DNA of 64,000 bases from Candidatus Hadarchaeota archaeon (lineage in GTDB: Archaea; Hadarchaeota; Hadarchaeia; Hadarchaeales; Hadarchaeaceae). The notes below the pieces were generated by a model. The model searched no databases, was not told the DNA's origin, and saw only the letters and a list, made by a program, of their open reading frames with translations. Where the stretch lies: contig CAZESD010000002.1 in NCBI GenBank assembly GCA_964514945.1, forward strand, positions 13,369 through 77,368. Reading direction: 5' to 3'. Below, piece after piece: positions 3,702 to 25,737 of this stretch. Made by a program: the position numbers and the translations under genes. The first letter of the stretch is position 1. Every line of letters begins with the position of its first letter.

Positions 3702-5456
3702 TCACGGTTTTGAGCCCGATGCTGAACGAGGCTGGGGATAAACATTCGGGAACTCGGAGTAGTAATCTAAAACGTTAAAGAATATCGGCTCGCCAGAAAT
3801 CGAAAGCGGAGAAATGGGTCCGTACACCATGAAGGGATACTGCTTTCCCCCCATTGTGAGTAATGTCGCGGGATCCCTGAAGCTCTGGTAGAGATCCAAG
3901 TATCCTCCTCCCCCTATCAGCTCTCGTATTGCTCTGAGTTCCCCTCCCCAAGAGAGCCCGTAACCAAAAAAACATATACGCATCTGTTTCAGTACCTCTA
4001 TATCCAGGCCCGCGATGGATGTGCTGATGAAAAGCCACCCAAATCCGTACTTTCTCGTTTCTCTGACGGCCGTCGTAAGCGTCCCCTTGAGATTCTTGAA
4101 ATCTTCGTCCACGGGCCTCTCTGAGGGAATGAATCTATGGGCCTCGTCCACCATCACGAGTAGGTTAAGCAACTCCCTCTCTCGGTACAGGGTCTCCGCG
4201 GCATCCCTCAGTTTTGCGAAGATTTCGTTCAGGACTATCGCCATGACTTCTGGACTCCAGAAGATTCCAGCGGCAGCGGTCTCCGAGAGGTCTATGATCA
4301 CGACGCACTTTTGCTTGCATATTTTCTGGATTAGATCATCAATCCTGACCTTTTGCGGAGCGACAACGAAAAGATCGGTGACAGACCTCCAGATGCTATA
4401 AAGATTTTGTCTCCTGTTAGCGATACAATTTCTAACCCGCATCTGTCCATCCGAACCCACATAGATTCTCTCCACATTCTGGTCGAGGTAATTCATGAGC
4501 TGGTCAAAAGCAGCTTGATGATTTATTGGAACAAAACCCTGTAGAGTGGAAACTCCGTGGGTCATTGGCGGGCGGGCAGACGGTTGTGTCAGAAACGACT
4601 CAATCAGGTAGAGCGCGTTTAACTGGTTTTCCTCCGCCACGACGCCGAGTTCGTGAAGGAACCTTGACCGGAGGAGGATTCGCTGAAGACTCGTGGGACT
4701 GGAAAGGCAGATGTCGCAGACCCTGTACACCTCGGGGGTTCTTCCTACTTGGCTCAGGAGCTTCACCAGATGCTCTTTATTCCTGACCTCGCTGGAGTAC
4801 TCACCGACAGGATCCAGCGCGAGGATTGACATCTGTGGGAACTTGGTGTAAATCGCAAGGAGCATCCTGGCCAAATAAGACTTTCCGGACCCAGTTTTTC
4901 CGAAGACCCCGATGTGGTACCCCTCCCCCAGTCCGCCGTTTTTCCCGAAGTGTTTGAAAAACATTGGAAGGAATATATCCGTGTTGTACAACTTCCCGAC
5001 ATAAGAAATGTCGGTCTGCGCCTTCACGAGTTCGTCCACGATCTCTTGGTTGAGGAGGAAGATTTTCGTCCCCGTTGGAGGAACTGAACCCAATGCGACG
5101 GGCAGTATCTTCCCCTTGTCCCAGGAATAGACCGATCCGACTGAGATCTCCATCCCCCTTACATCATGTTGCTCGGTCAACGGCGGCGCGCGCCCACGAA
5201 AGCTTGTGATCTTGCGAACCGAGTGTCGCTCGATGTACGGGTTCTCGAGCGAGATGGACACCACTTGCCCCATGGCGTAAACGGGCTTTCCATCTTGCCT
5301 GGATTCGGTGATACAGAAGTTTCCAACTATCCCCTTCTCGTATGCACCCTCGATTAAATCAGCGACCAGAGAGTGGCTGGATGACGGGGATCCAACGACG
5401 CCTATCCATTCCCCGCGCTGGACCTTACCGCCGAGCTCGTCCTGTTTTTCACTCAC
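3702..5456 (-). CDS. herA: HerA-like (DUF87/FtsK-HerA superfamily) hexameric ATPase/helicase
   Basis: Walker A GVFGKTGSGKSYLARML; Walker B/DEAH-like box LLVMVDEAHRF; an N-terminal region before the P-loop as in HerA HAS-barrel proteins; 4-nt start/stop overlap (ATGA) with the upstream NurA-like gene. Confidence 0.85.
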   Translation of the reverse strand: MSEKQDELGGKVQRGEWIGVVGSPSSSHSLVADLIEGAYEKGIVGNFCITESRQDGKPVYAMGQVVSISLENPYIERHSVRKITSFRGRAPPLTEQHDVRGMEISVGSVYSWDKGKILPVALGSVPPTGTKIFLLNQEIVDELVKAQTDISYVGKLYNTDIFLPMFFKHFGKNGGLGEGYHIGVFGKTGSGKSYLARMLLAIYTKFPQMSILALDPVGEYSSEVRNKEHLVKLLSQVGRTPEVYRVCDICLSSPTSLQRILLRSRFLHELGVVAEENQLNALYLIESFLTQPSARPPMTHGVSTLQGFVPINHQAAFDQLMNYLDQNVERIYVGSDGQMRVRNCIANRRQNLYSIWRSVTDLFVVAPQKVRIDDLIQKICKQKCVVIIDLSETAAAGIFWSPEVMAIVLNEIFAKLRDAAETLYRERELLNLLVMVDEAHRFIPSERPVDEDFKNLKGTLTTAVRETRKYGFGWLFISTSIAGLDIEVLKQMRICFFGYGLSWGGELRAIRELIGGGGYLDLYQSFRDPATLLTMGGKQYPFMVYGPISPLSISGEPIFFNVLDYYSEFPNVYPQPRSASGSKP

Positions 5457-6616
5457 TCGAATCCCCCCTCAGTTCTGTAGTCGTGAGATGCTAAAAAAAC
5501 ATCGACTGGAACACCGACTACTCGGTCCACATCGTTCAAAGCTGCCTCCCGGAGCTCGGCGAGGGCGAAGTACGCGTGCTTGACGAACTGGTCCGCGATG
5601 TAGAGAGGATACGGTTCGAAAATGCCGGGGATTCCGGATTGATCCATCAAAGCTTCTAGCAGCACCGCGACCCTGCGTTCGTCTTGGGCCACGTTCTCTG
5701 CTACCTCGAGTCTGAGCGCCGGGTGGGCTGGGGACACCTTGAAATAGAAAACTTGTAACTCCCACAGCGCATCGATTATCTTTTTTCTCAACCTAACGAA
5801 TACCTGATCGCTTTCCATTTCTCCGAGTGTGAGGTGCCAGCGGTCCTCCGGGCGGCTGAGCTTCACGGGTCCTACCACATCGCCGGGTTTCAGGGCTATC
5901 GACAGCAGTCCCTTATCGTCTATCCCCTTGAGGACTGCGTGGTTCATGTCTTCCTTTACCAGCAGTGAAAGAATCTCGCTCCGAGTGGTGTACTTCGGCA
6001 CGCCGACGTACATGATGTCGGTCCTTGGAGAAGTGAGGACCTTGAGGTAGTTCTCCAGCGTTGTTTTTTGTCTTGAAACGAACTCATTTTTGAGTTTTTC
6101 TGGGGCATGGCTGACCGCGCGAAATCCCTGTCCAATTTTTATAAGCTGGGTTGTGAGCGAGCCGTCCAAAAAAACGACACGATGGGGGGCGCTCGTGGCG
6201 AGATTAAGCTCGTAAGAAAACATAAGGGCACTACACACGGGTAGCGTTTCGGGTTTGTGCTCGACAGGAAAAATGCGGACGATGTGGTGCGGTTTCTCCC
6301 ACCGTCTGGTTTCTTTTGGTGGGACAAGTCCCTCAACCGCGACACCTGCAATTCCAGTCGTGTCCAGCGAGAGTTGTCGAATGACCGCATAGGTTCCATC
6401 CACACCAACGGTTGTCGGGTAGCTCTTTTGTCTCAACAACTCGTTCACATTTCTTAACTGCCCGAGCTCGATGAGCTTTTCCCTCACGGGGGTTTTTATG
6501 TTCTCTATCTCTCGTAACCTGTCACTCACACTTTGAACAACTTCGCCGTGTTTTTGGAGCATCTCGTCCACCATCGACTCAGGGAGAAAATCTAGTGGAC
6601 TTTCGTACTTCTTCAT
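5453..6616 (-). CDS. nurA: NurA-like 5'-3' nuclease, partner of HerA
   Basis: NurA signature motifs VGVDGTYAV (motif I, xDGS/T) and VVFLDGSL. It is translationally coupled to herA. I prefer the start at 6616 (MKKYESPL) over the track start at 6703 because 6703 would overlap the upstream gene by 85 nt. Confidence 0.7.
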   Translation of the reverse strand: MKKYESPLDFLPESMVDEMLQKHGEVVQSVSDRLREIENIKTPVREKLIELGQLRNVNELLRQKSYPTTVGVDGTYAVIRQLSLDTTGIAGVAVEGLVPPKETRRWEKPHHIVRIFPVEHKPETLPVCSALMFSYELNLATSAPHRVVFLDGSLTTQLIKIGQGFRAVSHAPEKLKNEFVSRQKTTLENYLKVLTSPRTDIMYVGVPKYTTRSEILSLLVKEDMNHAVLKGIDDKGLLSIALKPGDVVGPVKLSRPEDRWHLTLGEMESDQVFVRLRKKIIDALWELQVFYFKVSPAHPALRLEVAENVAQDERRVAVLLEALMDQSGIPGIFEPYPLYIADQFVKHAYFALAELREAALNDVDRVVGVPVDVFLASHDYRTEGGFE

Positions 6617-6618
6617 GT

Positions 6619-7464
6619 TCAATGCCTCGGTGCCTCCAAAATTAACAGCTTCTTGCGACCCCGCTCTCTCGCCATGACTTTCCATCCCGCACGCTTGAAA
6701 CAAAAACCTGGATCTGTGCTTTTAATTGCTTTTGGGTTAACATATGTGAATAAGCGTTTCCCCGACCATTTCTTTATGGCTTGCTTCACAGCTTCTTTGA
6801 TTAAATCACTCGATAGTCCAGCCCCCTCGTTTCTGAACAGCGCACACTCTACTCCCTTCTGTCCATCCCAGCGGATTTTGTTCAATCTCCAGACGAACAG
6901 GGCTCGTTTGTCTGGAGTTATCAAGACCAGTTTTTCACCTGGACCGCAGAAAAACCTCGCGCCCCTAGTTTTTCTGGAGTAGTGATTATCAGCTAGTCTC
7001 TTGGCATCCAAGTTCGCATCATGGGTCACCATCCACACAACTTTTTCTTTGCCCCCATCATAGTCCTCGCTCCAGCGATTGAACTTTGTGAACCCACCAA
7101 GAGCCCGCATTACCGAGCGCGAGCTAATGCCAACGGTAGTGGCTATTTTCTCATACGTAAAACCTTTCTCACGCATAGAAATCATTTTCGCTAAATCTCT
7201 GCGCGAGAGCTTTACCGGTCTCCCCTGCTTTGAGTAGTCATAGATCACATCGACCCTTTTTTGAAAGAGGTAATCTAGTGCTCTCCTGCTTGCATTTTTT
7301 CTCGCCGTTCGTGTGAGAGTTACCCTCTCCAGATTCGGGCATCGCTTCAAGAGAAGCTTTACCGTGTTGCAAGTAAGATAATTAACAACATGAACTTTTT
7401 TGGCGCATCGTGGAAGTCCGTCTATATCCTCATTTTTTCTTACAATCAAAATATCAGCCCCCAA
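6619..7464 (-). CDS. Hypothetical protein with an internal helix-turn-helix, first gene ahead of nurA-herA in the same operon
   Basis: HTH-like stretch TYEKIATTVGISSRSVMRAL; stop 2 nt before the preferred NurA start; unknown C-terminal domain. Confidence 0.5.
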   Translation of the reverse strand: MGADILIVRKNEDIDGLPRCAKKVHVVNYLTCNTVKLLLKRCPNLERVTLTRTARKNASRRALDYLFQKRVDVIYDYSKQGRPVKLSRRDLAKMISMREKGFTYEKIATTVGISSRSVMRALGGFTKFNRWSEDYDGGKEKVVWMVTHDANLDAKRLADNHYSRKTRGARFFCGPGEKLVLITPDKRALFVWRLNKIRWDGQKGVECALFRNEGAGLSSDLIKEAVKQAIKKWSGKRLFTYVNPKAIKSTDPGFCFKRAGWKVMARERGRKKLLILEAPRH

Positions 7465-7486: not shown

Positions 7487-7990
7487 TTAACATTTTGTCA
7501 CTCCCCTCGCTCGCAGATTTTCACTTAAATTTTCGTCATTCTGTCGCTCCTCCGTTTCAAGTCTTTTGATGGTTCTGGTCTCTCTCTTTATCTCTTTGGG
7601 TCTTGGCCTAAGCTTCTTGTCCATCCTCTCCTTGAAGCGAACACCGACAACTTCTCTTGTAATGCCTAGTTCATAAAGTTCTTGAGGACGAACACAACCT
7701 TGGCGCAAAATCACCTCTGGGATTTTTTCTGGACTGGAGAAAATGCGAACCTCTACAGCAACCTTCAAAACACTTGGACCCGAATATCCCCGTCTGAATT
7801 CGATTAAAAATTTTGAACCCGATCGAGCAAGATATTGCTTCCCAACTGGGCTTGCCGCACTCCGAAATTCCCAGATCTTTTTCCCTTGCGCGATAAGGTC
7901 AAACCACTTCTTTTTAAGCGGGCAAAAAACCCTTCGCCATTTCTTAACACTTCCCATGATCAGATCCCCAAAAACCATCCGACCACCCAC
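7487..7990 (-). CDS. ASCH (PUA-like) domain protein
   Basis: KKWFDLIAQGKKIWEFR matches the ASCH core (hP.K..yfd.I..G.Kt.E.R); the C-terminal tail is basic. Confidence 0.55.
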   Translation of the reverse strand: MGGRMVFGDLIMGSVKKWRRVFCPLKKKWFDLIAQGKKIWEFRSAASPVGKQYLARSGSKFLIEFRRGYSGPSVLKVAVEVRIFSSPEKIPEVILRQGCVRPQELYELGITREVVGVRFKERMDKKLRPRPKEIKRETRTIKRLETEERQNDENLSENLRARGVTKC

Positions 7991-8343
7991 CCGATCGCGA
8001 ACCAGTAGAGCATGTCTAGGTTAAGCAGGAAAGACGCTTTATATCCGACGCCCTCCGCCAAGCGCCCGTAAACTTTCCTCCAAAGATGCGGATCGCCTAG
8101 TGCAATCAGTGGGTAGAGGCAGAACACCAGAGGCACGACGATAACGAAGCCGAAGTAGCTGGCCGACGCCCCGACCACGAACGCTAGGCCGCACTCGGCA
8201 CGGGCCAGAAGCGAGTAGATTGTCAACCTCCGATTGCCCTTCTTTATCTTGTGTCTCATTCGGGCCATGAACTTAGCATAGCCTTCGTCGAACCTTCGGG
8301 CCAAGAAGTCGCCTGGGGTGAGGATTAGGCGCTTGACGTTCAT
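7960..8343 (-). CDS. Small membrane protein, the full-length member (copy 1) of a family that recurs in this window
   Basis: 127 aa with two hydrophobic segments. Paralogous sequence recurs at 14583, 18249, 19277 and 20594. Confidence 0.6.
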   Translation of the reverse strand: MNVKRLILTPGDFLARRFDEGYAKFMARMRHKIKKGNRRLTIYSLLARAECGLAFVVGASASYFGFVIVVPLVFCLYPLIALGDPHLWRKVYGRLAEGVGYKASFLLNLDMLYWFAIGWVVGWFLGI

Positions 8344-8679
8344 TCCATTTCATCCTATTAATCTAGAGCAGCACGAGTCGCATGTTGCTTTTAATGTGCA
8401 CTCATTCATGCGGAGGATTTTTAGCAATTCTCCCATCTCCGTTTGTCTGCTCAAGAAAAATAACATCTCCGAAAACTCTGCAAGTTTTATACGGGTGTGA
8501 GGAGGGTGGGAAGTTGAGTCTTCTTCAAATCTCGAAAGATACAATCGCTCTCGTCCTTTGCAATCCTCGTTTCGGCGTGGACTTTCTTCTCAGGGGAGAT
8601 TTTTTTGGCTTGCAAAATGGGCCCTTTAATTGGGAGCTTAATTAATGTGCAAAGCCGAGTTAGATTTGAGGCATGTAAA

Positions 8680-9510
8680 TTAACGATCTATCTGGCTGAA
8701 CTTGGAAATAAGTTGCTCGATGGTTAATAACTCAGTGCTTCTGAACTTCAGAGCATTGTCTGTTACATTTTGTACTTCGTGTAGTTTCACTATTTTTTCG
8801 TCGCTTGACCATACAACCACGTATAGCGGAACATTAAGACTCTGTCTAAGAATATCCAAAGGTTTCCACCTGTTTATGTCTTTGGAAAAGTAAAGATTCA
8901 GATCATGAGATTTCACTGGAAATTTGCGAGTTCTACTGAATTCGAAAATAGCTTCCACCTCCTTGGCTATTTTGTTCAAGAGAAACCCATCAAGGTTACC
9001 TGGCCAAGGGACGCCGTGCCGTCGTAGGCACTGGTCTATGGATGATAATCGACCTGGCTCAACGAAACCTTTAGAGACATGAATTCCCTTCAGGCTTGAC
9101 ATCCACTGTGCGAGATCTTCGCATGAGTTAAACAACTTTTTATTTACAACTACTATCTGTCCCTCGTCTTTAGCATCTACAGACAAAAGCCAAAAATTTT
9201 CCCCCCCATCTTGCCATAGCAGGAGATACAGCGGAACATTTAGAGACCTAGCCAGCACTATCCTAGCAAGCCAAGGATCTTTGTCTTCTTTTGTTTCAAA
9301 CCACTTACAGATCTGAAGTTCTGTCCATTCTCCAACTCTGATTGTGGATTTGCGCCTTTCGAATAATGCGGTGACAATGTTGCCCCTAACGGAGTAACCT
9401 TCTACAGGGTAAAGTGGAATGCCTTTTTTAAGAAGGGATTCATATACCCAATTTTTGGCTTCTGGTGTATCTATCCGTAATTCTGCTGCCATAATTTCCC
9501 CTCCATTCAC
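8680..9510 (-). CDS. Hypothetical protein made of two tandem copies of one homologous domain
   Basis: The block ARSLNVPLYLLLWQDGGENFWLLSVD in the first half matches LRQSLNVPLYVVVWSSDEKIVKLHEV in the second half. Confidence 0.5.
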   Translation of the reverse strand: MNGGEIMAAELRIDTPEAKNWVYESLLKKGIPLYPVEGYSVRGNIVTALFERRKSTIRVGEWTELQICKWFETKEDKDPWLARIVLARSLNVPLYLLLWQDGGENFWLLSVDAKDEGQIVVVNKKLFNSCEDLAQWMSSLKGIHVSKGFVEPGRLSSIDQCLRRHGVPWPGNLDGFLLNKIAKEVEAIFEFSRTRKFPVKSHDLNLYFSKDINRWKPLDILRQSLNVPLYVVVWSSDEKIVKLHEVQNVTDNALKFRSTELLTIEQLISKFSQIDR

Positions 9511-9648
9511 TCTCGATCCTCCTTTGTGAAAACCTATAGCTTTATGCGCGACTATTAATTTTTAACCCAATATCTCTCAATGGGGGTTGCTCCTAAAATA
9601 GCTTCTGCTCCCAAGGTACTTTTAATATGCGGGCAGAAAATCGATAGA

Positions 9649-12336
9649 TTACCTCAAACTCTCCTCAATAATTTTCTTTTCAGATTCAGTTATACCATAC
9701 AAACTATAGACCAATTCGTCTATCTCCGCGTCTGTTTTATTTATTTCTTCTTCTATTCTCTGTCTTTCGTCTGTTTTTTTGTCCCCGATTTCATTGAGGC
9801 GTTTGTTAAGAGAGAGCATTTTGTCCACGAGTTTGATAAGGGGTTGTTGTTGGGTTTCTGGAATTATTTTAATCGGTAGTTCATCTATTTGAGTCCCCCG
9901 CAAATCCAGATATCCACCACCGACATGGGTGGTGCCAAAATTTACTTTGTAATAAAAATCAATCACTTTTGAATTTAAGAGTGCAGTTAAAAATCTGAGA
10001 TTGATTTTTTGTTCTTTTTTTGGGATTAAATAGTAAATTCTATCCATTATGAAATTACCGCCGCCTTCATACGCTGCTTTAAGACTTAAAACTGTTCGTG
10101 GCATGAGCACTTTCTCTTTCGACAAAATTTTATTTTGTAGATCAGAAACAACAAAAACATCATCAGAAAGTTTAGGTAAATACCCGCTAACATTTCTAGA
10201 AACTATGCACTTGTGTGAGTTTTTTGTCTTTTCATTTAGTATTTTTATCTTATTTTTTGGTGAACCTCTACGGCATGTGAACAAATCTTTTACCCTAACA
10301 CTCTTTTTAACAAACTTCTCTATTAATTGAAATTTAATGTTTCCAATTTCTTCAAGAAATCTATTATCTCGACCTTCTAGAAACTTGGATTGTTTTATTT
10401 TTACTGTATTCTTATTAAAATGTAAATCTTCTATCTCATTTATTTTTTGAAATGTTATTAAATTGTTTTTTCTATTCATCTCATTACCCTCTTTTTGTAG
10501 GATTGTGATAACTGGATATGTCGATGCATCTTTGAAAATCCTCAAATGAGATACATCAATCAAAGAGATGATCTTGCAGTTTTCAAGAATTATATCCCTT
10601 AATTTTTGGCCGTAGTCACTCGCAATAAATTTGTTAGAAGTGATAAATCCCAAGTATCCATTATTTCTTAATAACTTCATCCCAATTTCAAAAAATAAGA
10701 TATAGATGTCGTATTGTTCGTAGGCACTTGAATATTTCTTAGCGTGAAACAGTTTATCTTTATTTGGAAGATCAGTATTTCTAATGTAAGGCGGATTTCC
10801 GATAACAACATCAAAACCGCCTTCGTCAATGATTTGTTTGAATTCCTTTTCCCATTTGAAAGCCTTATCTCCCGCGACTTTTTCATCGTCAATCAAAGAA
10901 TTACCGCATTTGATGTTTTGCTTTAGCAAGGGCAATCTGTATCCTTTTTCCGTAATTTTCAACAAAAGATTTAACTGTGCGATCTCTACTGCTTGCTTGT
11001 CTAAATCAACGCCGAAAATATTGTTCTTCAAAATTTCTACTTTTTTTGTAAATGTCGTTCCTGTCTCTACATCCAAGCGTGTTTGATTGTAATCTTTATC
11101 CTTCTTGCTGTGGTATTCATTCAAAACATCAAAAGCTTTTATCAAAAATGAACCGGAGCCACAAGCAGAATCCAAAACCCTAATTTTTTCGACATCCACT
11201 GTTTTGTCTTTAAGCAACTCACCTAAAGTATTTCTTACGATATAATCAACAATATAAGTGGGCGTGTAGTAAATTCCCTGCTCCTTGCGGCGGGCGTGCT
11301 TTTTCGCCAAGGTGGCCCGCTTTGCGGTCTTCTTTAGAATGTGGCCCAAGTACTGCTCGTAAACATTACCAAGAACATCAGCATCTAGTGCGGAAAAATC
11401 ATACTTTATTGTCCTATCCTTTGTGTGATCAAGACCGTTTATTATTTCTTCAAGAACCTCATTACTCACATCTAATTGGTCGCATAAGTGAGGTTTAAAC
11501 AGCTCACTATTGTATTCATCCCAAAAATGGCGGAAAACATCAACTATACGTTCAGCAAGAGTGCCTCTATGTTTACTTTCCCATATCCGTAGCACGGATA
11601 ACAATGTTTCTTCTTCTAGTTTTCTATCTTCACAGTTTCTAATGAAAATTAGTCTATCTATAATTCTCTGAACAGCCTCGTCCAACTCCGCCTCAGTGAG
11701 TCGTTTGTCTTTGTTTCTCGCTAGAATATCCTTAGAAAGCTTGGCTCGCCATATTGTCAAATCGTTAAGCAACTGTTCGCCCACAGAACTTTTCTTAGAT
11801 TTTTTGCCCCATTTCTCAGCTTCTTTATCCAATAAGCCCTGTTCAAAACTTTCTTTAGACAGAAGCCACAATTCCTCAAATCTGTCTAAAAACTCTTGGC
11901 GAGGGATAGTTATCGGACGACTTTGAGACGGGTCGGTGGTTTTCCACTCTGCATTAAATATTTTTACGCCTTGATCAAAATCGGTAAGAACGGCCCAAGT
12001 GCAGCCCTTATGCCAAGCGTAATTTATTGCTTGTTCTGCAAACCTAGGATCATCCAAGTCCTCTTTTAGTGCTTTTGCTTCGAGAAAGAATTTTGGGATT
12101 CCATTAATTCTAAAACTGTAGTCAACCCGACCCTTTGATATTGTTTCTTCTCTGGTAACTTCATCGGGATGTGTTTTATTACGAACATCCCAACCCAAAG
12201 CTTCAAACAAGGGTTCTATAAATTCAGCTTTGGTATCCGCCTCAGTATACTTGCCGAATCTTTTTTCTTCGACGACTTTGTCGTATTTCTCAAGAAGCTC
12301 CTTTATTTGCTGTTTGGCGTTTTCCTTGTTTACCAT
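9649..12336 (-). CDS. Type IIG/IIL restriction-modification enzyme of the MmeI family (endonuclease fused to an N6-adenine methyltransferase)
   Basis: N-terminal PD-(D/E)xK layout matching MmeI (RVDYSF..FFLEAKALKEDL); methyltransferase motif I VLDSACGSGSFL and motif IV VVIGNPPY; C-terminal region the size of a target-recognition domain; 895 aa. Confidence 0.85.
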   Translation of the reverse strand: MVNKENAKQQIKELLEKYDKVVEEKRFGKYTEADTKAEFIEPLFEALGWDVRNKTHPDEVTREETISKGRVDYSFRINGIPKFFLEAKALKEDLDDPRFAEQAINYAWHKGCTWAVLTDFDQGVKIFNAEWKTTDPSQSRPITIPRQEFLDRFEELWLLSKESFEQGLLDKEAEKWGKKSKKSSVGEQLLNDLTIWRAKLSKDILARNKDKRLTEAELDEAVQRIIDRLIFIRNCEDRKLEEETLLSVLRIWESKHRGTLAERIVDVFRHFWDEYNSELFKPHLCDQLDVSNEVLEEIINGLDHTKDRTIKYDFSALDADVLGNVYEQYLGHILKKTAKRATLAKKHARRKEQGIYYTPTYIVDYIVRNTLGELLKDKTVDVEKIRVLDSACGSGSFLIKAFDVLNEYHSKKDKDYNQTRLDVETGTTFTKKVEILKNNIFGVDLDKQAVEIAQLNLLLKITEKGYRLPLLKQNIKCGNSLIDDEKVAGDKAFKWEKEFKQIIDEGGFDVVIGNPPYIRNTDLPNKDKLFHAKKYSSAYEQYDIYILFFEIGMKLLRNNGYLGFITSNKFIASDYGQKLRDIILENCKIISLIDVSHLRIFKDASTYPVITILQKEGNEMNRKNNLITFQKINEIEDLHFNKNTVKIKQSKFLEGRDNRFLEEIGNIKFQLIEKFVKKSVRVKDLFTCRRGSPKNKIKILNEKTKNSHKCIVSRNVSGYLPKLSDDVFVVSDLQNKILSKEKVLMPRTVLSLKAAYEGGGNFIMDRIYYLIPKKEQKINLRFLTALLNSKVIDFYYKVNFGTTHVGGGYLDLRGTQIDELPIKIIPETQQQPLIKLVDKMLSLNKRLNEIGDKKTDERQRIEEEINKTDAEIDELVYSLYGITESEKKIIEESLR

Positions 12337-12454
12337 GATATCCCTAGAATATTTGGAATTTTTGGGTATTAAACTGCTCTATCTCGTGAGGTCTAATCAC
12401 CGAACGATTTTTTGCGCAGAAAACTAATTATAGCACAAAGCCTTAAATTAGGCT

Positions 12455-12748
12455 ATGAATAAGAAAGTAGAGAATGCCCGTCTAGTTGCCTTTCTGAATA
12501 ATTATGACTATTCTTTTTGGTATCATAAAATACTTTCATTAGACGAGATTTACAAGGATGAAAATTTCATCAATAAAGTTTTGAGCAAAATGACAGGTAC
12601 TGGTATCGTAGAAATAAGAAGAAGTATCGAATTCGAGATGTTTATGGCCAGTCAGCACCTTATCGAGACCCTATTTATGCTGATAGGAGCAGGACGAAAA
12701 ACTAAAAAAAGACGAGGGTTGGCGGAGCGCTTAATGAGGGGTTATTAG
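12455..12748 (+). CDS. Small hypothetical protein
   Basis: ORF only; lies between two minus-strand cargo genes. Confidence 0.3.
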   Translation: MNKKVENARLVAFLNNYDYSFWYHKILSLDEIYKDENFINKVLSKMTGTGIVEIRRSIEFEMFMASQHLIETLFMLIGAGRKTKKRRGLAERLMRGY

Positions 12749-12843
12749 TGGCACGTATGTGGTAAATAGGGCGACATGACCCGACACCTAGTACGTAAGA
12801 AAATCATACCGAGAACCTTGCCGTGCGGGCAGGGCAAACTGTC

Positions 12844-14232
12844 TCAAGTACTCCAAAAAAATCCCGGAACATAAACTTCTTCGTGGGATAATCCACCATG
12901 TGAGGATTTGAAATGCGTGAATCCTGAACGATAATTTGAGAGGTCTAAGCCTCCGAGGTAACAATTCTCGAAATGAACAACTACTTCCCCAATATGAAAA
13001 TCAGTCCCATAGGACTCACCAGTAATCTCTTCAGTCGCGAATCGTTCAAGTGTTCCAGGCTTAAGCGTTTTCCATTTTTCACCTGCCCAATCATAGCCGT
13101 AAAAACCTGAGCCTTCCTTTTTCACCCGTACAAGTGCAGGTTCGATGTCAGATTTCATTATCAAGGGATGTAAATCCTCAGAATAAAGATTGAGAATAGT
13201 TTGATTCGTTGCATAAAATTTGTAGTTCTTACCTAGGTACTTTTTAAATTTAGGAAAGGGAACAAAACCTTCTGGAACAGGTTTGTGGCCATGATCAGAA
13301 ACAATGAAGGAAAGGGTCTGACCGGAGCCAGATTCTTTGAGTTTACTATCTAAGCTAATTATGTATTGAAAGATTTTGCACAATTCGGATGTGACTATAG
13401 GGTTATCCGCTCCGTACATGTGAGCTAGGTAATCAATTGTGAATCGAACGAAGAGAAGCCAAAACTTCTTTGTCTCGTTTCTCTTGATGTATTTCTCTGC
13501 TTCTTGGGATGTCTCTAGGTTACCTGTGGTTTTTACATAAGTTTCTCTAAATAATTCACTCCCAAAAAAGTAATCTAAGAAACGACGTCCTTCGCTTTGG
13601 CTGTGGGATTTTCCTGCGGTGATAAATCCCAATGCACCGTCTTTATCCATCAATGAGGAGAGCAGGAAATAGGTCGTGATGGGAACCACGCTGGGTAAAA
13701 GCAGCTTTGTATTGTCCGATAGGTTTGGTTTAACGTTGAATCTTTCCCCAGTGTCTACGTCCCAGAACCTATCTGCGAAAACTTTGTGCTCTATTGGGAA
13801 CGCACCTGTGAATAATGATGTTGTAGCTACTGTGGTCATCGATGGGAACGTTGTAAACATTGAAGCTATCTCAGGCTTTATTTTTTCGAAGAAGGGTTTA
13901 CCTGATTTGAAAAATGTGGTAAAGCCCATGCCATCTATCAGGTAAATGATAATGTGATTGAATGATTCTAAATTCACATGAAGTCGGTCCTCGATCACAT
14001 CTTCCAAGCTTGCTCCGCAGTATCCCAGGCGTTGAATGTCATAAAGCGTGTTTATCTTAATATCGGTACCTAACACTCCTGCCTCGAGTCTTCTCTTTGG
14101 AGGACCCTCCCTTTTTTCTAAATACCGCAATAAAGTAGGGGCTATATCGACAATCGAAAACTCGCCCTCGTCCAAATCACGAATTCGTGTGCATATCTTT
14201 AGGCCATGCTTTGTGTTTTCAACGGCTGTCAT
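12844..14232 (-). CDS. Alkaline-phosphatase-superfamily protein (type I phosphodiesterase / nucleotide pyrophosphatase-like; PglZ-like fold)
   Basis: Metal-ligand and nucleophile block IIIYLIDGMGFTTF...PSMTTVATTSLFTG, FIVSDHGH and C-terminal SHGGLSHEEVYVP are all typical of the AP/NPP clan; there is an extra N-terminal domain of ~90 aa. Confidence 0.7.
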   Translation of the reverse strand: MTAVENTKHGLKICTRIRDLDEGEFSIVDIAPTLLRYLEKREGPPKRRLEAGVLGTDIKINTLYDIQRLGYCGASLEDVIEDRLHVNLESFNHIIIYLIDGMGFTTFFKSGKPFFEKIKPEIASMFTTFPSMTTVATTSLFTGAFPIEHKVFADRFWDVDTGERFNVKPNLSDNTKLLLPSVVPITTYFLLSSLMDKDGALGFITAGKSHSQSEGRRFLDYFFGSELFRETYVKTTGNLETSQEAEKYIKRNETKKFWLLFVRFTIDYLAHMYGADNPIVTSELCKIFQYIISLDSKLKESGSGQTLSFIVSDHGHKPVPEGFVPFPKFKKYLGKNYKFYATNQTILNLYSEDLHPLIMKSDIEPALVRVKKEGSGFYGYDWAGEKWKTLKPGTLERFATEEITGESYGTDFHIGEVVVHFENCYLGGLDLSNYRSGFTHFKSSHGGLSHEEVYVPGFFWST

Positions 14233-14356: not shown

Positions 14357-14582
14357 GGCCCGCAACCACTAACTTCCAGTTCTTGTGGAGGCTGAAAGCT
14401 TGGAGGCCGCGGATTGCCGATAAACGGTTTGGGGGCGGATAAAAAAGGGCTTCGGTTTTGGGACGTCCAGCGAGGGTTAGAGAAGTGATTTCATCGGAAA
14501 GATTGAGGTCAAACCGATGACTCACGCCCCGCCGAACGCCGAAAGTGATTTTGGGCGCGGGGATAAAAGCTGTTGCGATCGG

Positions 14583-14880
14583 ATGAACGTCAAGCGCCTA
14601 ATCTTCACCCCCGGCGACTCCCTGGCCCGGAGGTTCGACGAGGGATATACCAAGTTCATGGCCCGAATGAGGCGCAAGATGAAGAATGGCAATCGGAGGT
14701 TGGCGATCTACTCGCTTCTTGCTAGGGCGGAGTGCGGGCTTGCTTTCGTGGTCGGGGCTTCGGCGAGCTACTTCGGCTTCGTCATCGTGGTGTCTCTGGT
14801 GCTCTGCCTCTACCCGCTGATTGCTCTCGGTGACCCTTTCTTATGGCGCAGGACATACGGGCGCTTGGTGCGAGGCATCG
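14583..14880 (+). pseudogene. Small-membrane-protein family copy 2: the 5' part is intact and fused to an unrelated GC-rich tail
   Basis: MNVKRLIFTPGDSLARRFDEGYTKFMARM...YGRLVRG lines up with copy 1 up to about 14880, after which homology is lost. The ORF in the track runs on to 15065 through sequence of atypical composition. Confidence 0.5.
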
Positions 14881-15175
14881 ACCCGTCCCTGCCACATGTT
14901 CGCTTGTCGGCGCGATCTTCAACGCCGCCGATGCCTTTCGCCGCTCCCCTCTCTGCGTCCGCTGGTGCGGCCGGATGGATAACCTCACCCAAAAGCTTGC
15001 GCTCTCGGGAAACCGCACCAGCGGATTGCGCGAGCATTTCGGGAGTGAAGGCCATTCCTCCTTGACCTTCTTCGGCATTTTAACCTTGGTGGCGGACTGG
15101 AACCCGAATTATGCGACTGGCTGCACATCGGACGGGATCTCAGCATCTCGCCAGCACTCTCCCGCCAGCCCACTC

Positions 15176-15330
15176 TCGCCATCTCCTACTCACCTTCGAG
15201 GTACTTCCTCACCTTCCGCTGGCGCAGCACGTGCCTTCGGAGCATCGCCTTCCGCCTGCGCACCATCAAGAGCGCGTATCCGGCCGCCCCGACCGCGAGC
15301 ACTCCGACCCCGAGCTCGACCATCATCTCA
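15176..15330 (-). CDS. Small protein with one transmembrane helix (46 aa; translated by hand, below the track's length cutoff)
   Basis: MMVELGVGVLAVGAAGYALLMVRRRKAMLRRHVLRQRKVRKYLEGE; it is a tandem paralog of the gene just upstream. Confidence 0.35.
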
Positions 15331-15549
15331 TTTTTCCTCCTCGAACTTCCTCTTGAGCCTTTTTAACTTCCTCAGTTGCTCCTCGCGTATCTTGGTCCAC
15401 TTCGCCCTTCTCCTGTACTGGCGAACCGCATAGCCGGCCGCGCATATGGCGAGGATTCCGACCCCGAACTCCACTATCATTTTCTCCCCTTCGGCCTTCT
15501 TCGGCATTTTAGGCCACGGCGTGTAGGGGGCACGGTCGCGCGTAGCCAC
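15328..15549 (-). CDS. Small protein with one transmembrane helix (73 aa), paralogous to 15176..15330
   Basis: MIVEFGVGILAICAAGYAVRQYRRRAKW... followed by a basic coiled tail; DNA-level repeat with the neighbouring gene. Confidence 0.4.
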   Translation of the reverse strand: MATRDRAPYTPWPKMPKKAEGEKMIVEFGVGILAICAAGYAVRQYRRRAKWTKIREEQLRKLKRLKRKFEEEK

Positions 15550-15571
15550 TCAAGCGTCTTGTGGTCTATCC

Positions 15572-15871
15572 TCACTCCCCCTCGCCCGTACTCGATGAGA
15601 GAAGTCCTCTGAGTTCCTTGTGTTTTTTCAAGAACTCATAACCCCGCTCGGTGACCGCCCAGTTCGATGGCGAGTTGGTCTGGGCTTTTACCAGTCCGCC
15701 CTTGGCTAGGTCACTTATGTATCGCCTGCACCGGCCGAAGTTCAGGTTGGCCCTGTAGACGATGTGGGTTTTGCAGGCCCCGTCGTCGATAGCACCCAAT
15801 ATATCAGCGTAAATGTCAGTTAGACCCCTTCGCTTTATGCTGTCCATCCTCGGAATTTGCCCAGCCCCCAT
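15572..15871 (-). CDS. Winged-helix DNA-binding protein
   Basis: Pattern KRRGLTDIYADILGAI...RYISDLAKGGLV, similar to archaeal wHTH regulators. Confidence 0.5.
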   Translation of the reverse strand: MGAGQIPRMDSIKRRGLTDIYADILGAIDDGACKTHIVYRANLNFGRCRRYISDLAKGGLVKAQTNSPSNWAVTERGYEFLKKHKELRGLLSSSTGEGE

Positions 15872-15974
15872 TTTTCCAGCAGACTATTCGTGTATCTAAT
15901 TGATACACAAACATACTCTATATTACCCATCACCCTTTAAAGGGATGCCTAACAAGATACACGGATGATACATT

Positions 15975-16166
15975 ATGAGTGCGCTGCGGGATGTGCGGTT
16001 GAAGATACCAGAACCCATGCTCGAGGGGATAGACTTGGCGATAGAGATGGGTCAGGCTGCGACGAGATCCGACTTCATCCGCATGTCAATAGCCGATCGC
16101 CTCAAGGAACTCACGATCGTCGGGGAACTCAAGCTGAGGAAATTCGGAAAGGGTCGAAAGGGTTGA
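15975..16166 (+). CDS. Ribbon-helix-helix (CopG-like) protein
   Basis: RLKIPEPMLEGIDLAIEMG...SDFIRMSIADRL fits the beta-alpha-alpha RHH pattern. Confidence 0.55.
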   Translation: MSALRDVRLKIPEPMLEGIDLAIEMGQAATRSDFIRMSIADRLKELTIVGELKLRKFGKGRKG

Positions 16167-16227
16167 GGCCCCCCAGCCACGATTTTCTGTTCTCCATCAG
16201 TCACACGCCGAACAGTTCCGCGGTGCC

Positions 16228-18248: not shown

Positions 18249-18470
18249 CTAGGCTAGACCAATCATCCACCCGGCCAGCCACCCGATCGCGAACCAGTAG
18301 AGCATGTCAAGGTTGAGGAGAAAAGACGCCTTGTAGCCGACGCCCCGCGCTAGGCGCCCGTAAACTTTCCTCCAAACATGCGGGTCGCCTAGTGCAATCA
18401 GCGGGTAGAAACAGAGCACCAAGGGCACCACTATGGCAAAACCAAAGTAGCTAGGTTTTCCTTAGCGGAG
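18249..18470 (-). pseudogene. Small-membrane-protein family copy 3, a fragment holding only the 3' part
   Basis: Homology begins at SYFGFAIVVPLVLCFYPLIALGDP...; a stop codon lies immediately upstream in the same frame. Confidence 0.55.
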
Positions 18471-19276: not shown

Positions 19277-19510
19277 CTAAAACACCGGTAAATAAAACCA
19301 CCCAACCGCCCACCCGATCGCGAACCAGTAGAGCATGTCTAAGTTTAGTAGAAATGAGGCCCTGTATCCGACGCCCCGCGCTAACCGCCCGTATGTCCTG
19401 CGCCACATGAAAGGGTCGCCCAGTGCAATCAGCGGGTAGAGGCACAACACCAAGGGCACGACGATAACGAAGTCGAAATAACTAGCCGTTGCTCCGACCA
19501 CCCATGACCC
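19277..19510 (-). pseudogene. Small-membrane-protein family copy 4, a fragment holding only the 3' part
   Basis: VGATASYFDFVIVVPLVLCLYPLIALGDPFMWRRTYGRLARG...; it is closest in sequence to copy 2. Confidence 0.55.
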
Positions 19511-20593
19511 ATGACCGCCCAGAATCTAACTTTTCAAACAGAAGCTACTTTTTAAACACGCTTCCGACTTTTTAAACAGGGGGCACTTTTTAAACAAAGC
19601 CGTTATTCTTTAGCTATACTGATAACATACGCTACTAAGACGGCAATCCCGATTATGAAAATCGCAACTCCCGCAGGTTGCAAAGGTGATGGATAAGCAG
19701 CTAGGGCCCCACCAATTAATAGAGCTGCAATACCAGCAGCTAGGGGGCTTTCTTTGCCAGCCACATTTTCACCTCCAAATTGGAGCTAGTTTCCACTAGT
19801 ATAAGCGTTTGGATAATTCATTTTGAACAGCCCGCTGTTATTGATAATCATTTTGCCTTTGGTTTGAGTATTCGGGTTATGTAAAGCGTGGTAATTGCAC
19901 CCATTATCATGCCGAATAATACGTATAATAAGTTCGATATGTCCATCTCAAATCACCCCCGTTCATTTTTTGACTTTAGGAGCAACCCCCAGAATTTAGG
20001 AGCAGAGTCCGAAAAGTGCTCCTAAAGTACCGTTTGTTTTAAATTTTTCAACCCCATCAGGAAAACTTGCTGGTACTAAAGGAATCTGTTTTCATACCAT
20101 GCCTTGCTGACCCATTTATGTTTTTCACATGCATTGAGTTTTGTTTCGGCATCGATCCTATGTTTTGGGTTGCAAAACGGGCAGTTATTGTTTTCAGTAA
20201 TTTTTAATTCGCCCTGCTGTAATGCTTTTTTAACCCAGCCCATCTCAATCTCCTTTGTCCATACAGAATGTTATATTGATTTTCATTTATTTCCCTTCAA
20301 ACTCTATTAGGTTCTGTTAACTTAAGTGGGTCTGATTTTTGTGGAGAGCAGGCTTTTCGGTTCTGTAAATTCTGCGGGGTTCAAGAAATCAATATACGAT
20401 GCCCACGTTGTGGATGGGGTTGCGAGGTTCGAGGAGGGCCAAGAGATCCCCCTCAAAAAAGAGCACGTGTCGATGTATATCGAATACGAGAAGATACTCG
20501 AGGCTCTGAAAGAAAAAATACTCAAAGAGGGCAGCGAATTTGAAAAAAAGCGCATAGAGGGCAGCGAGTTTTGCCTGGGCGAGGACGTATCCT

Positions 20594-20645
20594 CGATATG
20601 CTCTACTGGTTCGCACTCGGATGGGTGGTAGGGTGGATTTTATAA
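20594..20645 (+). pseudogene. Small-membrane-protein family copy 5, a remnant of the C-terminal tail
   Basis: Encodes LDMLYWFALGWVVGWIL* in the frame offset by +1 from ORF 20326..20631. Confidence 0.4.
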
Positions 20646-22544: not shown

Positions 22545-23117
22545 TTGTTGCTGGAAAATCGCTATTTTTCCCCTTATAAACAACCTCCACCCAAAGACTC
22601 GGCGGGGAGAAACATATGGGAGGTGAAAGAAGTGTCAAAACGAAAATATCGAGGAAAGGGTCTGAAGAGTTACGAGCGTGAGCCCCTCAGTAGAGAAGAA
22701 ATCAGAGAGCTAATCCAAGCCCCAGACAACCTTCGTGACAGGCTGATTATCGCATTGCTCTACGACACGGGACTAAGGACAAATGAGCTGGCAGACCTCA
22801 AGCTGAGTGACATCGACCCGGAAAAAGGGATGATCAAGGTAGTCAGAGGAAAGAGGGGAAGAGACAGGCTGGTTCCCTATTCCAGGGAAAAGCTCGGCAT
22901 GCTCGTAGACCACTGGCTGAGAAAAGAAAGAGGTAGCTACCTGGATGCAGGGGACGACGATCACTTCTTCGTTTCGAGATATGGCAAGGGACTGAAACCG
23001 GATGAGATAAGAAAAATCGTCCGCAAAGCTGCCGAGCAAGCGAGGATTCAGAAGATCCACGGAGTGACGCCGCGTATCCTCAGACATTCCTTCGCCACTC
23101 ACGCTACAGAAAAATAA
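22545..23117 (+). pseudogene. Truncated tyrosine recombinase; the catalytic core is present but the segment carrying the C-terminal Tyr is missing
   Basis: LRTNELADLKLSDID...RILRHSFATHATEK contains the R..HxxR box, but the ORF stops before the LGH...Y motif. Confidence 0.65.
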
Positions 23118-23120
23118 TGG

Positions 23121-25495: not shown

Positions 25496-25499
25496 TGCG

Positions 25500-25721: not shown

Positions 25722-25737
25722 ACAGGAGGTTCAGTGA

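What the first reader, a model, noticed from the sequence alone, without database searches (positions are those of the whole stretch)
8680..14232. A defence-style cargo block: an MmeI-family type IIG RM enzyme next to an alkaline-phosphatase-superfamily protein and a protein with a duplicated domain
The 895-aa protein has the MmeI-type N-terminal PD-ExK nuclease, a gamma-class N6A methyltransferase (DSACGSGSFL / NPPY) and a target-recognition domain, so it is a single-chain restriction-modification enzyme. About 500 bp away on the same strand lies a 462-aa AP/NPP-clan phosphodiesterase-like protein (DGMGFTT..., SDHGH, SHGGLS). This pairing resembles the PglX+PglZ pair of BREX systems, but the other BREX genes are absent. 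The 276-aa protein made of two tandem homologous domains (LNVPLY..W motifs) completes the block.
Basis: partly seen in the sequence, partly recalled or inferred. Interest (0 to 1): 0.6.

Follow-up and report, generated by a model that had tools for sequence, protein, structure and literature searches.

The report
Restriction enzyme with an unrecognised partner gene
An archaeal chromosome carries a foreign three-gene block in which a single-chain restriction-modification enzyme is paired with an unannotated, widely conserved two-domain nuclease-like protein, while the neighbouring phosphodiesterase gene is a rare bystander and not a BREX-type partner.

Summary
All three ORFs and every quoted motif are present at the stated coordinates, in a low-GC block inside an archaeal chromosomal island.

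- **895-aa protein.** It is an intact type IIG restriction-modification enzyme. It is Eco57I-like, not MmeI-family in the strict sense.
- **462-aa protein.** It is an NPP-type (PF01663) phosphodiesterase with a complete catalytic residue set. It gives no PglZ signal in Pfam, PADLOC or a PDB profile search. Its family is very rare, and no other homologue sits beside a type IIG enzyme or a 276-aa homologue. The BREX-like PglX+PglZ reading is not supported.
- **276-aa protein.** This is the real finding. It is a true internal duplication (hhalign 98%) and belongs to an unmodelled family of 258 clusters. In 17 of 18 close-relative loci with enough flanking DNA, the family gene lies directly beside a ~950-aa Eco57I-type enzyme. 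The eighteenth follows a type III system. More distant members sit beside a type IIG C-terminus (two loci), a lone methylase and a phage Eco57I-type methylase.

The C-terminal domain keeps near-invariant D174, E190 and D211 and weakly resembles PD-(D/E)xK nucleases. I infer an accessory nuclease, which is untested. It is optional for the enzyme class: related plasmid-borne enzymes lack it, and the two examined pair with a second methylase.

The parts
9649..12336 (-). 895-aa type IIG restriction-modification enzyme, Eco57I-like: N-terminal PD-(D/E)xK nuclease (D72, E86-x-K88), gamma-class N6-adenine methyltransferase (DSACGSGSFL, NPPY), TaqI_C-type specificity domain
   Evidence: Pfam; PADLOC REase_MTase_IIG 5.9e-135; motifs read in the translation; the nuclease motif is retained in 10 of 11 aligned partner homologues, L024 unclear
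8680..9510 (-). 276-aa (or 270-aa from the ATG at 9492) conserved RM partner: two tandem homologous alpha/beta domains. The C-terminal domain carries near-invariant K147, D159, D174, E190 and D211. Probable accessory nuclease.
   Evidence: Duplication, hhalign 98%; family of 258 clusters; adjacency to type IIG or type III RM genes; AF2 pLDDT 91; weak PD-(D/E)xK fold matches; conservation
9511..9648 (-). 138-nt spacer between the RM gene and the partner gene, with GGAGG 7 nt before the GTG start
   Evidence: Sequence. In homologous loci this gap is -13 to +67 nt.
12844..14232 (-). 462-aa cytoplasmic NPP-type (PF01663) metallo-phosphodiesterase with a full catalytic residue set. Rare family. A neighbour of the RM module, not a conserved part of it.
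   Evidence: Pfam 2.8e-18; no PglZ hit; family alignment; contexts
12337..12843 (.). 507-nt spacer between the AP-family gene and the RM gene, with no convincing gene. The 97-aa + strand ORF at 12455-12748 has no family support.
7960..8343 (-). Full copy of a 127-aa small membrane-protein gene (here called m127) on the left flank of the block. Host-like GC 0.56.
14583..14879 (+). Diverged copy (residues 1-99, 85% identical) of the same 127-aa gene on the right flank, in inverted orientation. Together with the left copy it forms the 259-nt inverted repeat 8090-8348 / 14578-14836.

Best explanation
The region 8.35-14.58 kb is horizontally acquired, low-GC cargo in a variable island of an archaeal chromosome. 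It holds two separable things.

1. **A two-gene restriction-modification module.** The first gene is an intact Eco57I-like type IIG enzyme with nuclease, N6-adenine methyltransferase and specificity domains in one chain. Immediately downstream lies a conserved ~270-aa partner built from two tandem copies of a restriction-endonuclease-like domain.
   - Shown: the gene pairing recurs across many divergent loci.
   - Shown: the C-terminal copy keeps a near-invariant acidic cluster (D159, D174, E190, D211) plus K147, while the N-terminal copy is degenerate.
   - Inferred: the partner is a metal-dependent accessory nuclease, and its degenerate domain serves as a DNA-binding or pseudo-dimer half.
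   - Inferred: it adds a second cleavage activity to the RM enzyme, either cutting the second strand or acting as a back-up effector.
   - It is an optional add-on to this enzyme class, not an obligatory subunit.

2. **An unrelated neighbour.** This is a rare cytoplasmic NPP-type phosphodiesterase with an intact catalytic site. It is not PglZ and is not a conserved partner of the RM enzyme. Its homologues lie in variable islands, half of them gene-rich in defence-type functions, so it is most likely independent cargo.
For: **RM enzyme.** Domain matches are, and the motifs are read.

**Pairing with the 276-aa family.**
- Of 22 metagenome loci with a close 276-aa homologue, 17 carry an Eco57I-type ~950-aa ORF directly adjacent. 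Where measurable the gap is -13 to +67 nt. Two are convergent and one has the order reversed.
- L026 instead follows a type III Res-Mod pair. The other four contigs are too short to judge.
- No third gene is conserved.
- Remote members: L035 follows a type IIG C-terminus and L037 is convergent with one. L036 lies 3 nt after a lone 446-aa N6_N4 methylase. A Fusobacterium phage fragment lies about 500 nt after an Eco57I-type methylase.

**Independence from any one partner lineage.** The 276-aa homologues are 40-79% identical to the window protein (40-65% in the metagenome loci). Their partners are about 25-31% identical, apart from the two window-type loci L015 (65%) and L032. The partner gene is therefore more conserved than any one RM lineage.

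**Nuclease-like character.**
- AF2 models have pLDDT 91.2 (full length) and 84.6 (C-domain).
- The C-domain gives Foldseek matches to SPARDA DREN (probability 0.97), Hjc (TM 0.49) and a putative REase domain.
- BFVD gives 5 hits at E<=1e-3. Named hits further down are endonuclease, PD-(D/E)XK or YqaJ.
- Across 165 family members D174 is 99% conserved, E190 98%, D211 95%, K147 86% and D159 84%.
- The best hhalign path pairs D174 and E190 with the D and E of the type IIG nuclease motif.
- A family variant carries a Topo-I zinc ribbon at 3.8e-14.

**Partner is optional.** 74 plasmids carry RM895-like genes. Only one plasmid record has any 276-family match, a remote one in Halobaculum. The two plasmid loci examined pair the enzyme with a second N-6 methylase.

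**AP-family protein.**
- PF01663 2.8e-18, with no PglZ signal.
- 8 related clusters; one locus in 185,579 species genomes; none in viral contigs.
- Contexts are variable and never shared with the RM or the 276-aa family.
Against: - The fold assignment is weak. No PDB match reaches E<=1e-3. TM scores are about 0.4-0.5. YTH and DHH folds also appear in the list.
- The hhalign comparison with the type IIG nuclease domain is not significant, P 0.12.
- The canonical lysine of the ExK motif is absent; position 192 is S, R or A.
- All type IIG partners keep their own nuclease motif, so a second nuclease is not obviously needed.
- Some remote members have no methylase nearby: a Halobaculum plasmid-provirus copy next to a ribonucleotide reductase, and L039 in a Zorya/GmrSD island.
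- In the window the RM-to-partner gap is 138 nt, wider than in relatives.
- AP, RM and the partner share strand, GC3 and the same bracketed segment. A functional link peculiar to this locus cannot be excluded.
- Three of six independent AP-family contexts have a DNA methylase within two genes (and the window).
Confidence: 0.6

Rival explanations
1. Minimal BREX-like system. The type IIG enzyme acts as a PglX-like methyltransferase and the AP-family protein as a PglZ-like effector. The two work together without the other BREX genes.
For: - Both genes are on the same strand, 507 nt apart, with similar foreign GC3.
- PglZ and NPP enzymes belong to one clan. One AP homologue has a 'faint' PF08665 record.
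- RM895 shares its methyltransferase core with PglX/BrxX.
- The literature describes PglZ as a nuclease effector and reports stand-alone PglZ in BREX-related systems (PMC12839542).
- Three of six AP-family contexts have a DNA methylase nearby.
Against: - No PglZ hit for the window protein in Pfam at E<=5 or in PADLOC.
- The family profile finds PafA and ENPPs in the PDB and no chain named PglZ at E<=1.
- PglX NCBIfam scores fall far below their cut-offs.
- RM895 keeps its own nuclease and specificity domains, so it is a complete type IIG enzyme.
- No BrxA, BrxB, BrxC or BrxL among the neighbours scanned.
- The closest RM relative with flanking DNA (L015, 65% identical) and all the other 276-family loci have no AP homologue. 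No AP-homologue locus has a type IIG gene.
Confidence: 0.07
2. The 276-aa partner is a non-catalytic nuclease-fold protein. It could be a DNA-binding regulator of RM expression or establishment, or an assembly or targeting factor. An alternative version makes it a sensor of anti-restriction proteins rather than a nuclease.
For: - The ExK lysine is missing, and the N-terminal domain is clearly degenerate.
- The partner is more conserved than its RM partners and works with several RM types, which suggests a generic rather than a sequence-specific role.
- Variants carry added DNA-binding modules: a Topo-I zinc ribbon and a weak HTH.
- The type IIG partners already have a nuclease.
Against: - Near-invariance of four acidic residues and a lysine across 165 divergent members is typical of a metal-dependent active site, not of a scaffold.
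- In L036 the family member is the only nuclease-like gene beside a lone methylase. That arrangement resembles a classical methylase-plus-endonuclease pair.
Confidence: 0.22
3. The three genes are three independent cargo items that merely share a hotspot. The AP-family protein would be its own defence or counter-defence enzyme, for example one that hydrolyses nucleotide-derived signals. The 276-aa gene would be a selfish or mobility nuclease that rides with RM genes.
For: - Three of the five other AP-homologue contexts hold island-type genes: TIR_2 plus an Mrr-methylase fusion plus resolvases (L001); solo Cas1 plus NurA-HerA plus a Dam methylase (L003); an integrase (L007).
- The window block lies between rearranged copies of one gene, near three tyrosine recombinases.
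- Remote 276-family members occur in a provirus replication region and in a Zorya/GmrSD island.
Against: - The tight, repeated, often overlapping juxtaposition of the 276-aa family with Eco57I-type genes argues for co-expression and a shared function.
- No mobility genes are conserved around the pair.
- Nothing tested here bears on the substrate of the AP enzyme.
Confidence: 0.11

Closest known systems
Eco57I-type type IIG systems (R.Eco57I plus a separate M.Eco57I)
   Same: - RM895 has the same single-chain layout: PD-(D/E)xK nuclease, gamma-class N6A methyltransferase, C-terminal specificity domain.
- Its strongest Pfam match is PF07669 Eco57I.
- Relatives about 30% identical on bacterial plasmids are annotated as Eco57I-domain methylases.
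- Like Eco57I, it comes as a two-gene unit.
   Different: - In the two plasmid systems examined, the second gene is a stand-alone N-6 methylase.
- Here, and in 17 metagenome loci, the second gene is the 276-aa tandem nuclease-like protein and no second methylase is seen.
- Recognition site and cleavage behaviour are unknown.
Heterodimeric type IIS enzymes with a small nuclease subunit (BspD6I, BtsI, BsrDI; from general knowledge of these enzymes, not tested here)
   Same: A large, sequence-recognising subunit with one catalytic site is encoded next to a small PD-(D/E)xK protein that cuts the other strand. That arrangement would explain a nuclease-fold partner for a single-site type IIG enzyme.
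   Different: - There is no sequence or significant structural match to those small subunits.
- The partner here is a tandem two-domain protein.
- It also occurs with a type III system and with a lone methylase.
- Many RM895-like enzymes lack it.
BREX (PglX + PglZ)
   Same: - The gamma-class N6A methyltransferase core is shared with PglX/BrxX.
- An alkaline-phosphatase-clan protein is encoded nearby.
   Different: - The AP-clan protein is NPP-type (PF01663), 462 aa, with no PglZ profile match.
- No BrxA, BrxB, BrxC or BrxL is present.
- RM895 has its own nuclease.
- The pairing does not recur elsewhere.
Auxiliary or back-up PD-(D/E)xK nucleases encoded beside methylation-based defence systems (PMC12839542)
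   Same: A stand-alone restriction-endonuclease-fold gene is embedded next to the core genes of a methylation-based defence system, and its presence varies across related systems.
   Different: - That survey concerns BREX and BREX-related systems, not type IIG or type III RM systems.
- The family here matches no Pfam, NCBIfam or PADLOC model.
NPP / ENPP / PafA phosphodiesterases (PF01663)
   Same: AP462 matches PF01663 above the gathering score. It keeps the metal ligands and the Thr nucleophile: IDG, FPSMTT, D267/H271, DHGH, SSHGG. The nearest solved relatives are PafA and ENPP7, ENPP1, ENPP4 and ENPP5.
   Different: - No signal peptide is evident by inspection of the N-terminus.
- It has a ~95-aa N-terminal and a ~125-aa C-terminal extension.
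- The family is extremely rare and island-associated.

Membership tests
Type IIG restriction-modification enzyme | Nuclease and methyltransferase in a single polypeptide, with an N-terminal PD-(D/E)xK catalytic motif | tested here: met
   D72...E86-A-K88 read in the translation. Pfam HSDR_N 3.5e-9 at residues 66-122. The motif aligns in 10 of the 11 partner homologues compared; L024 is unclear.
Type IIG restriction-modification enzyme | Gamma-class N6-adenine methyltransferase motifs I (xxGxGxF) and IV (NPPY) | tested here: met
   DSACGSGSFL and GNPPY. Eco57I 8.8e-49 and N6_Mtase 1.3e-21. PADLOC REase_MTase_IIG 5.9e-135.
Type IIG restriction-modification enzyme | C-terminal target-recognition domain | tested here: met
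   TaqI_C 6.1e-13 at residues 734-822
Type IIG restriction-modification enzyme | Site-specific cleavage and methylation activity | not testable with these tools
   Needs biochemistry or methylome data
MmeI family (strict sense) | Best matches to MmeI-specific domain models or to the MmeI structure | tested here: not met
   Only MmeI_Mtase matches, at 51 bits against Eco57I at 166 bits. No MmeI N-terminal, helical or TRD model matches, and the specificity domain is TaqI_C. phmmer against the PDB returns M.BseCI, CamA and BrxX but no MmeI chain at E<=1e-3.
BREX | PglZ (PF08665) alkaline-phosphatase-family protein | tested here: not met
   No PF08665 hit at E<=5. No PADLOC PglZ hit. The family profile against the PDB gives PafA and ENPPs only. 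One homologue, P0005, has a 'faint' precomputed PF08665 record.
BREX | PglX/BrxX methyltransferase above family thresholds | tested here: not met
   NCBIfam BREX_1/2/5/6 MTaseX score 84-120 bits against cut-offs of 400-900. Only the methyltransferase core matches.
BREX | BrxC/PglY ATPase and BrxA, BrxB, BrxL in the locus | tested here: not met
   No such hits among the ORFs of 3.7-15.4 kb in Pfam or PADLOC. The only ATPase is a HerA with NurA, at host-like GC.
NPP / type I phosphodiesterase (PF01663) | Profile match above the gathering score, with metal ligands and Thr nucleophile conserved | tested here: met
   67.1 bits against 23. F129-P-S-M-T133-T134, D267, H271, D313-H-G-H316 and S443-S-H445-G-G are invariant in the 7-9 sequences that cover each position; the metal-ligand D of I-D-G is conserved in the six sequences that reach it.
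PD-(D/E)xK nuclease superfamily (276-aa protein) | [quoted passage not shown] | tested here: inconclusive
   - Secondary-structure order fits.
- Foldseek matches to DREN and Hjc have TM 0.4-0.5 and E>=3.9e-3.
- BFVD best hit is 3.7e-5.
- D174 and E190 are about 99% conserved, but the lysine is not in place.
- hhalign is not significant.

The most novel reading that the evidence does not exclude
The ~270-aa tandem-domain family (258 clusters at 50% identity, in archaea, bacteria and at least one phage) is a new accessory nuclease. Together with Eco57I-type type IIG enzymes, type III systems or lone methylases it would define a distinct two-component restriction architecture. It takes the place that a second methylase occupies in classical Eco57I systems. 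Its job would be to cut the second strand or to deliver a back-up double-strand break.
Probability: 0.35. Interest if true: 0.6.

Novelty: new variant of a known kind. Interest (0 to 1): 0.45.

Why it matters
- **Annotation and detection.** Type IIG enzymes are treated as self-sufficient one-gene systems by annotation tools and defence finders. [quoted passage not shown] A conserved, unmodelled partner gene beside many of them would change how these loci are annotated.
- **Mechanism.** It gives a concrete candidate for how a single-site enzyme achieves or reinforces double-strand cleavage.
- **Enzyme discovery.** It would add a nuclease family of possible use to enzymologists.
- **The negative result.** An alkaline-phosphatase-clan gene next to an N6A methyltransferase is not enough to call a BREX-like system.

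Tried and rejected
**AP-family protein.**
- PglZ membership was tested in Pfam, PADLOC, NCBIfam and a PDB profile search and rejected.
- A search for conserved AP-RM linkage covered 5 look-ups of AP-homologue contigs, one GTDB scan and one IMG/VR scan, plus tblastn of all window proteins against all loci. No recurrence was found.
- NurA-HerA occurs both in the window and in AP-homologue locus L003. The two pairs share no specific similarity, and the window pair has host-like GC. A common larger system was rejected.

**276-aa protein.**
- A controller-type small gene in the 507-nt spacer was sought and not found.
- The idea that the 276-aa protein supplies the only nuclease was rejected: 10 of 11 aligned partners keep D...ExK (L024 unclear).
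- The idea that it is an obligatory subunit was rejected: 74 plasmids carry RM895-like genes and essentially none has the partner.

**Flanking repeat.**
- The inverted repeat was considered as the ends of a mobile element. Homology starts exactly at the ATG of a duplicated gene and covers only coding sequence, so paralogous gene copies are the better reading.

**Searches that gave nothing or could not be run.**
- Full-length Foldseek against the PDB gave nothing usable. A PDB sequence search with the family profile gave 0 hits at E<=10.
- No tRNA and no Rfam family were found in the window.
- The literature searches found no description of this partner family.
Full report
**Observation**

All quoted motifs are in the translations.

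The block is compositionally foreign. It has GC 0.36-0.42 and GC3 0.35-0.40, against GC 0.52-0.56 and GC3 0.60-0.73 for neighbouring and housekeeping genes.

The window is archaeal chromosomal DNA. It encodes glutamine synthetase, an RFC-type clamp-loader subunit, Mre11-Rad50 and phosphoglucomutase. Three tyrosine-recombinase ORFs lie at 22.5-27.2 kb.

The block is bracketed by a 259-nt, 86% inverted repeat. The repeat is two copies of a 127-aa membrane-protein gene. Homology begins precisely at the ATG, and both copies point away from the block. A second assembly (Logan contig L010, 6,420 nt) holds exactly AP-RM-276 and breaks at that repeat.

**The 895-aa protein**

Pfam gives the following:

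| Model | E-value | Residues |
|---|---|---|
| HSDR_N | 3.5e-9 | 66-122 |
| Eco57I | 8.8e-49 | 438-601 |
| N6_Mtase | 1.3e-21 | 319-636 |
| MmeI_Mtase | 1.4e-13 | 379-571 |
| TaqI_C | 6.1e-13 | 734-822 |

PADLOC's best model is a type IIG REase-MTase at 5.9e-135. D72...E86-A-K88, DSACGSGSFL and NPPY are all intact, so it is a complete type IIG enzyme.

It is Eco57I-like rather than MmeI-family. No MmeI-specific N-terminal, helical or TRD model matches. A PDB sequence search returns M.BseCI, CamA and BrxX but not MmeI. PglX models match only the methyltransferase core, far below their cut-offs.

**The 462-aa protein**

It matches PF01663 (type I phosphodiesterase/NPP) at 2.8e-18. It matches no PglZ model in Pfam, even at E<=5, and none in PADLOC.

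A profile of the family finds PafA, ENPP7, ENPP1, ENPP4, ENPP5 and phosphonoacetate hydrolase among solved structures, and no chain named PglZ. The NPP catalytic set is conserved in the family: the metal-ligand Asp, FPSMTT with the Thr nucleophile, D267/H271, DHGH and SSHGG.

The family is very rare:
- eight related clusters in 5.8 billion proteins;
- one locus among 185,579 species genomes, an uncultured archaeon;
- none in IMG/VR or PLSDB.

Its homologues sit in unrelated neighbourhoods:
- next to TIR_2, an Mrr-methylase fusion and resolvases;
- after solo Cas1, NurA-HerA and a Dam methylase;
- next to a rhomboid and an integrase;
- next to an acetyltransferase.

None of these loci carries a type IIG enzyme or a 276-aa homologue. 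No locus of the 276-aa family carries an AP homologue, including the closest RM relative with flanking DNA (L015, 65% identity).

The AP gene is therefore neither housekeeping nor a recurrent partner of the RM gene. The PglX+PglZ analogy fails both on membership and on linkage. A link peculiar to this locus cannot be excluded. The three genes share strand, GC3 and the bracketed segment, and three of six independent AP-family contexts have a DNA methylase within two genes.

**The 276-aa protein**

*Duplication and family.* The duplication is real: hhalign gives probability 98%, E 1.7e-13. The protein matches nothing in Pfam, NCBIfam, PADLOC or PDB sequences. It nevertheless belongs to a well-conserved family. 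There are 46 clusters by word-indexed search and 258 clusters at 50% identity by exhaustive HMMER. All listed members are free-standing; the full-length ones run 250-416 aa.

*Linkage among close relatives.* Of 22 metagenome loci with a close homologue, 17 have a ~950-aa Eco57I-type ORF directly adjacent. Where measurable the gap is -13 to +67 nt; two are convergent and one has the order reversed. One locus (L026) follows a type III Res-Mod pair. Four contigs are too short to judge. No third gene is conserved.

*Linkage among remote relatives.*
- L035 follows the C-terminus of an RM895-like gene, and L037 is convergent with a type IIG C-terminus.
- L036 lies 3 nt after a lone 446-aa N6_N4 methylase in a bacterial contig.
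- A fragment in Fusobacterium phage FNU4 lies about 500 nt after an Eco57I-type methylase.
- There are exceptions. A Halobaculum plasmid-provirus copy sits beside a ribonucleotide reductase. L039 sits in a Zorya/GmrSD island.

*Relative conservation.* The family is much better conserved (40-79% identity) than its partners (about 25-31% in the methyltransferase core, apart from L015 and the short L032 fragment). Those partners also use different specificity domains, M_Eco57I_C or TaqI_C.

**Likely function of the partner**

*Structure.* AlphaFold models are confident: pLDDT 91.2 for the full length and 84.6 for the C-domain. They show two similar alpha/beta domains. Fold matches are weak but thematically consistent.
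- Against the PDB: SPARDA DREN-APAZ chains (probability 0.97, TM 0.41), Hjc resolvases (TM 0.49), a putative REase domain, and cap-snatching and splicing endonucleases.
- Against BFVD: five hits at E<=1e-3 to ~140-200-aa phage proteins. Named hits further down are 'Endonuclease', 'PD-(D/E)XK' and YqaJ.

*Conservation.* Across 165 family members D174 (99%), E190 (98%), D211 (95%), K147 (86%) and D159 (84%, plus 12% E) are nearly universal. All five lie in or just before the C-terminal domain. The equivalent N-domain positions are not as well conserved.

*Comparison with the type IIG nuclease domain.* The best hhalign path pairs D174 and E190 with the D and E of the D...ExK motif, but it is not significant (P 0.12).

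*Domain fusions.* One variant carries a Topo-I zinc ribbon (3.8e-14).

*Inference.* I infer a metal-dependent nuclease whose degenerate N-domain acts as a DNA-binding or pseudo-dimer half. This is inference, not demonstration:
- the ExK lysine is absent;
- YTH and DHH folds also appear among the weak hits;

**How it may work with the RM enzyme**

All but one of the eleven type IIG partners aligned keep their own D...ExK motif; L024 is unclear. The partner therefore does not supply the only nuclease.

RM895-like enzymes (about 30% identity from residue 3 onward) occur on 74 bacterial plasmids. Only one plasmid record has even a remote family member. In the two plasmid loci examined the second gene is a stand-alone N-6 methylase, the classical Eco57I arrangement.

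The 276-aa protein is thus an optional accessory. It occupies the position that a second methylase holds in classical systems. The most economical models are:
- a second-strand or reinforcing nuclease, by analogy with the small subunits of heterodimeric type IIS enzymes;
- a back-up effector of the kind catalogued beside BREX-type systems (PMC12839542).

A non-catalytic regulatory or targeting role remains a serious rival.

**Verdict**

Its central analogy (BREX-like PglX+PglZ) and the family label (MmeI) are wrong.

The noteworthy result is a conserved, unmodelled partner family for Eco57I-type, type III and lone N6A methylase genes. That makes this a new variant of a known kind of system, of moderate interest. 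Its mechanism still has to be tested.

Noticed in passing
window 7963-8343(-), 14583-14879(+), 18255-18461(-), 19295-19507(-), 20592-20642(+): One 127-aa small membrane-protein gene occurs as a full copy plus four partial copies: residues 1-99, 59-127, 54-124 and 109-125. The copies alternate with low-GC cargo genes (342-, 238- and 273-aa ORFs). Three tyrosine recombinase ORFs lie at 22545-27168. This looks like repeated integration or inversion at one target gene.
   Followed up: partly
window 3702-6703 (-) and 38750-42437 (+); L003 1827-4481: A HerA-NurA pair lies 32 kb away from Mre11-Rad50, next to an HTH protein. The AP-homologue locus L003/L004 also carries NurA-HerA plus a solo Cas1. 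The two HerA/NurA pairs share no specific similarity.
   Followed up: partly
L036 6658-9095: A remote family member (364 aa) starts 3 nt after a lone 446-aa N6_N4 methylase that resembles a type III Mod. The contig is bacterial and the layout is that of a classical methylase-plus-endonuclease pair.
   Followed up: partly
L040 (Halobaculum halophilum plasmid NZ_CP058532.1, 125550-126359): A 27%-identical family member lies between a B12-dependent ribonucleotide reductase and an AAA ATPase. The plasmid also encodes phage head-tail genes and no methylase is adjacent.
   Followed up: no
L039 6001-7251: A 416-aa remote family member sits in an island with Zorya-type genes (ZorA-like, OmpA, EH_Signature), GmrSD_N and a UvrD-RNase T helicase.
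   Followed up: no
L041 (Xanthomonas pXcaw19) and L042 (E. coli IncK2/Z plasmid): RM895-like type IIG genes on conjugative bacterial plasmids are paired with a second stand-alone N-6 methylase. In Xanthomonas a ribbon-helix-helix gene lies upstream.
   Followed up: partly
window 12844-14232 (protein P0056): In the 90%-identity protein collection the AP protein is filed in a cluster whose representative is a 48-aa fragment. This hid the self-hit in the homologue search.
   Followed up: yes
window 14880-16227: A high-GC (0.57) stretch right of the block has long overlapping ORFs on both strands and internal direct repeats (15273-15326 / 15427-15480 and 15056-15082 / 15485-15511). Nothing matched in Pfam.
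   Followed up: no
window 36258-37382 (-): A 374-aa N6_N4-type DNA methylase ORF lies directly beside the RFC-like clamp-loader gene, with no obvious nuclease partner.
   Followed up: no
window 56294-63994 (-): A 2,566-aa ORF fills the last 7.7 kb of the window. It was not analysed.
   Followed up: no
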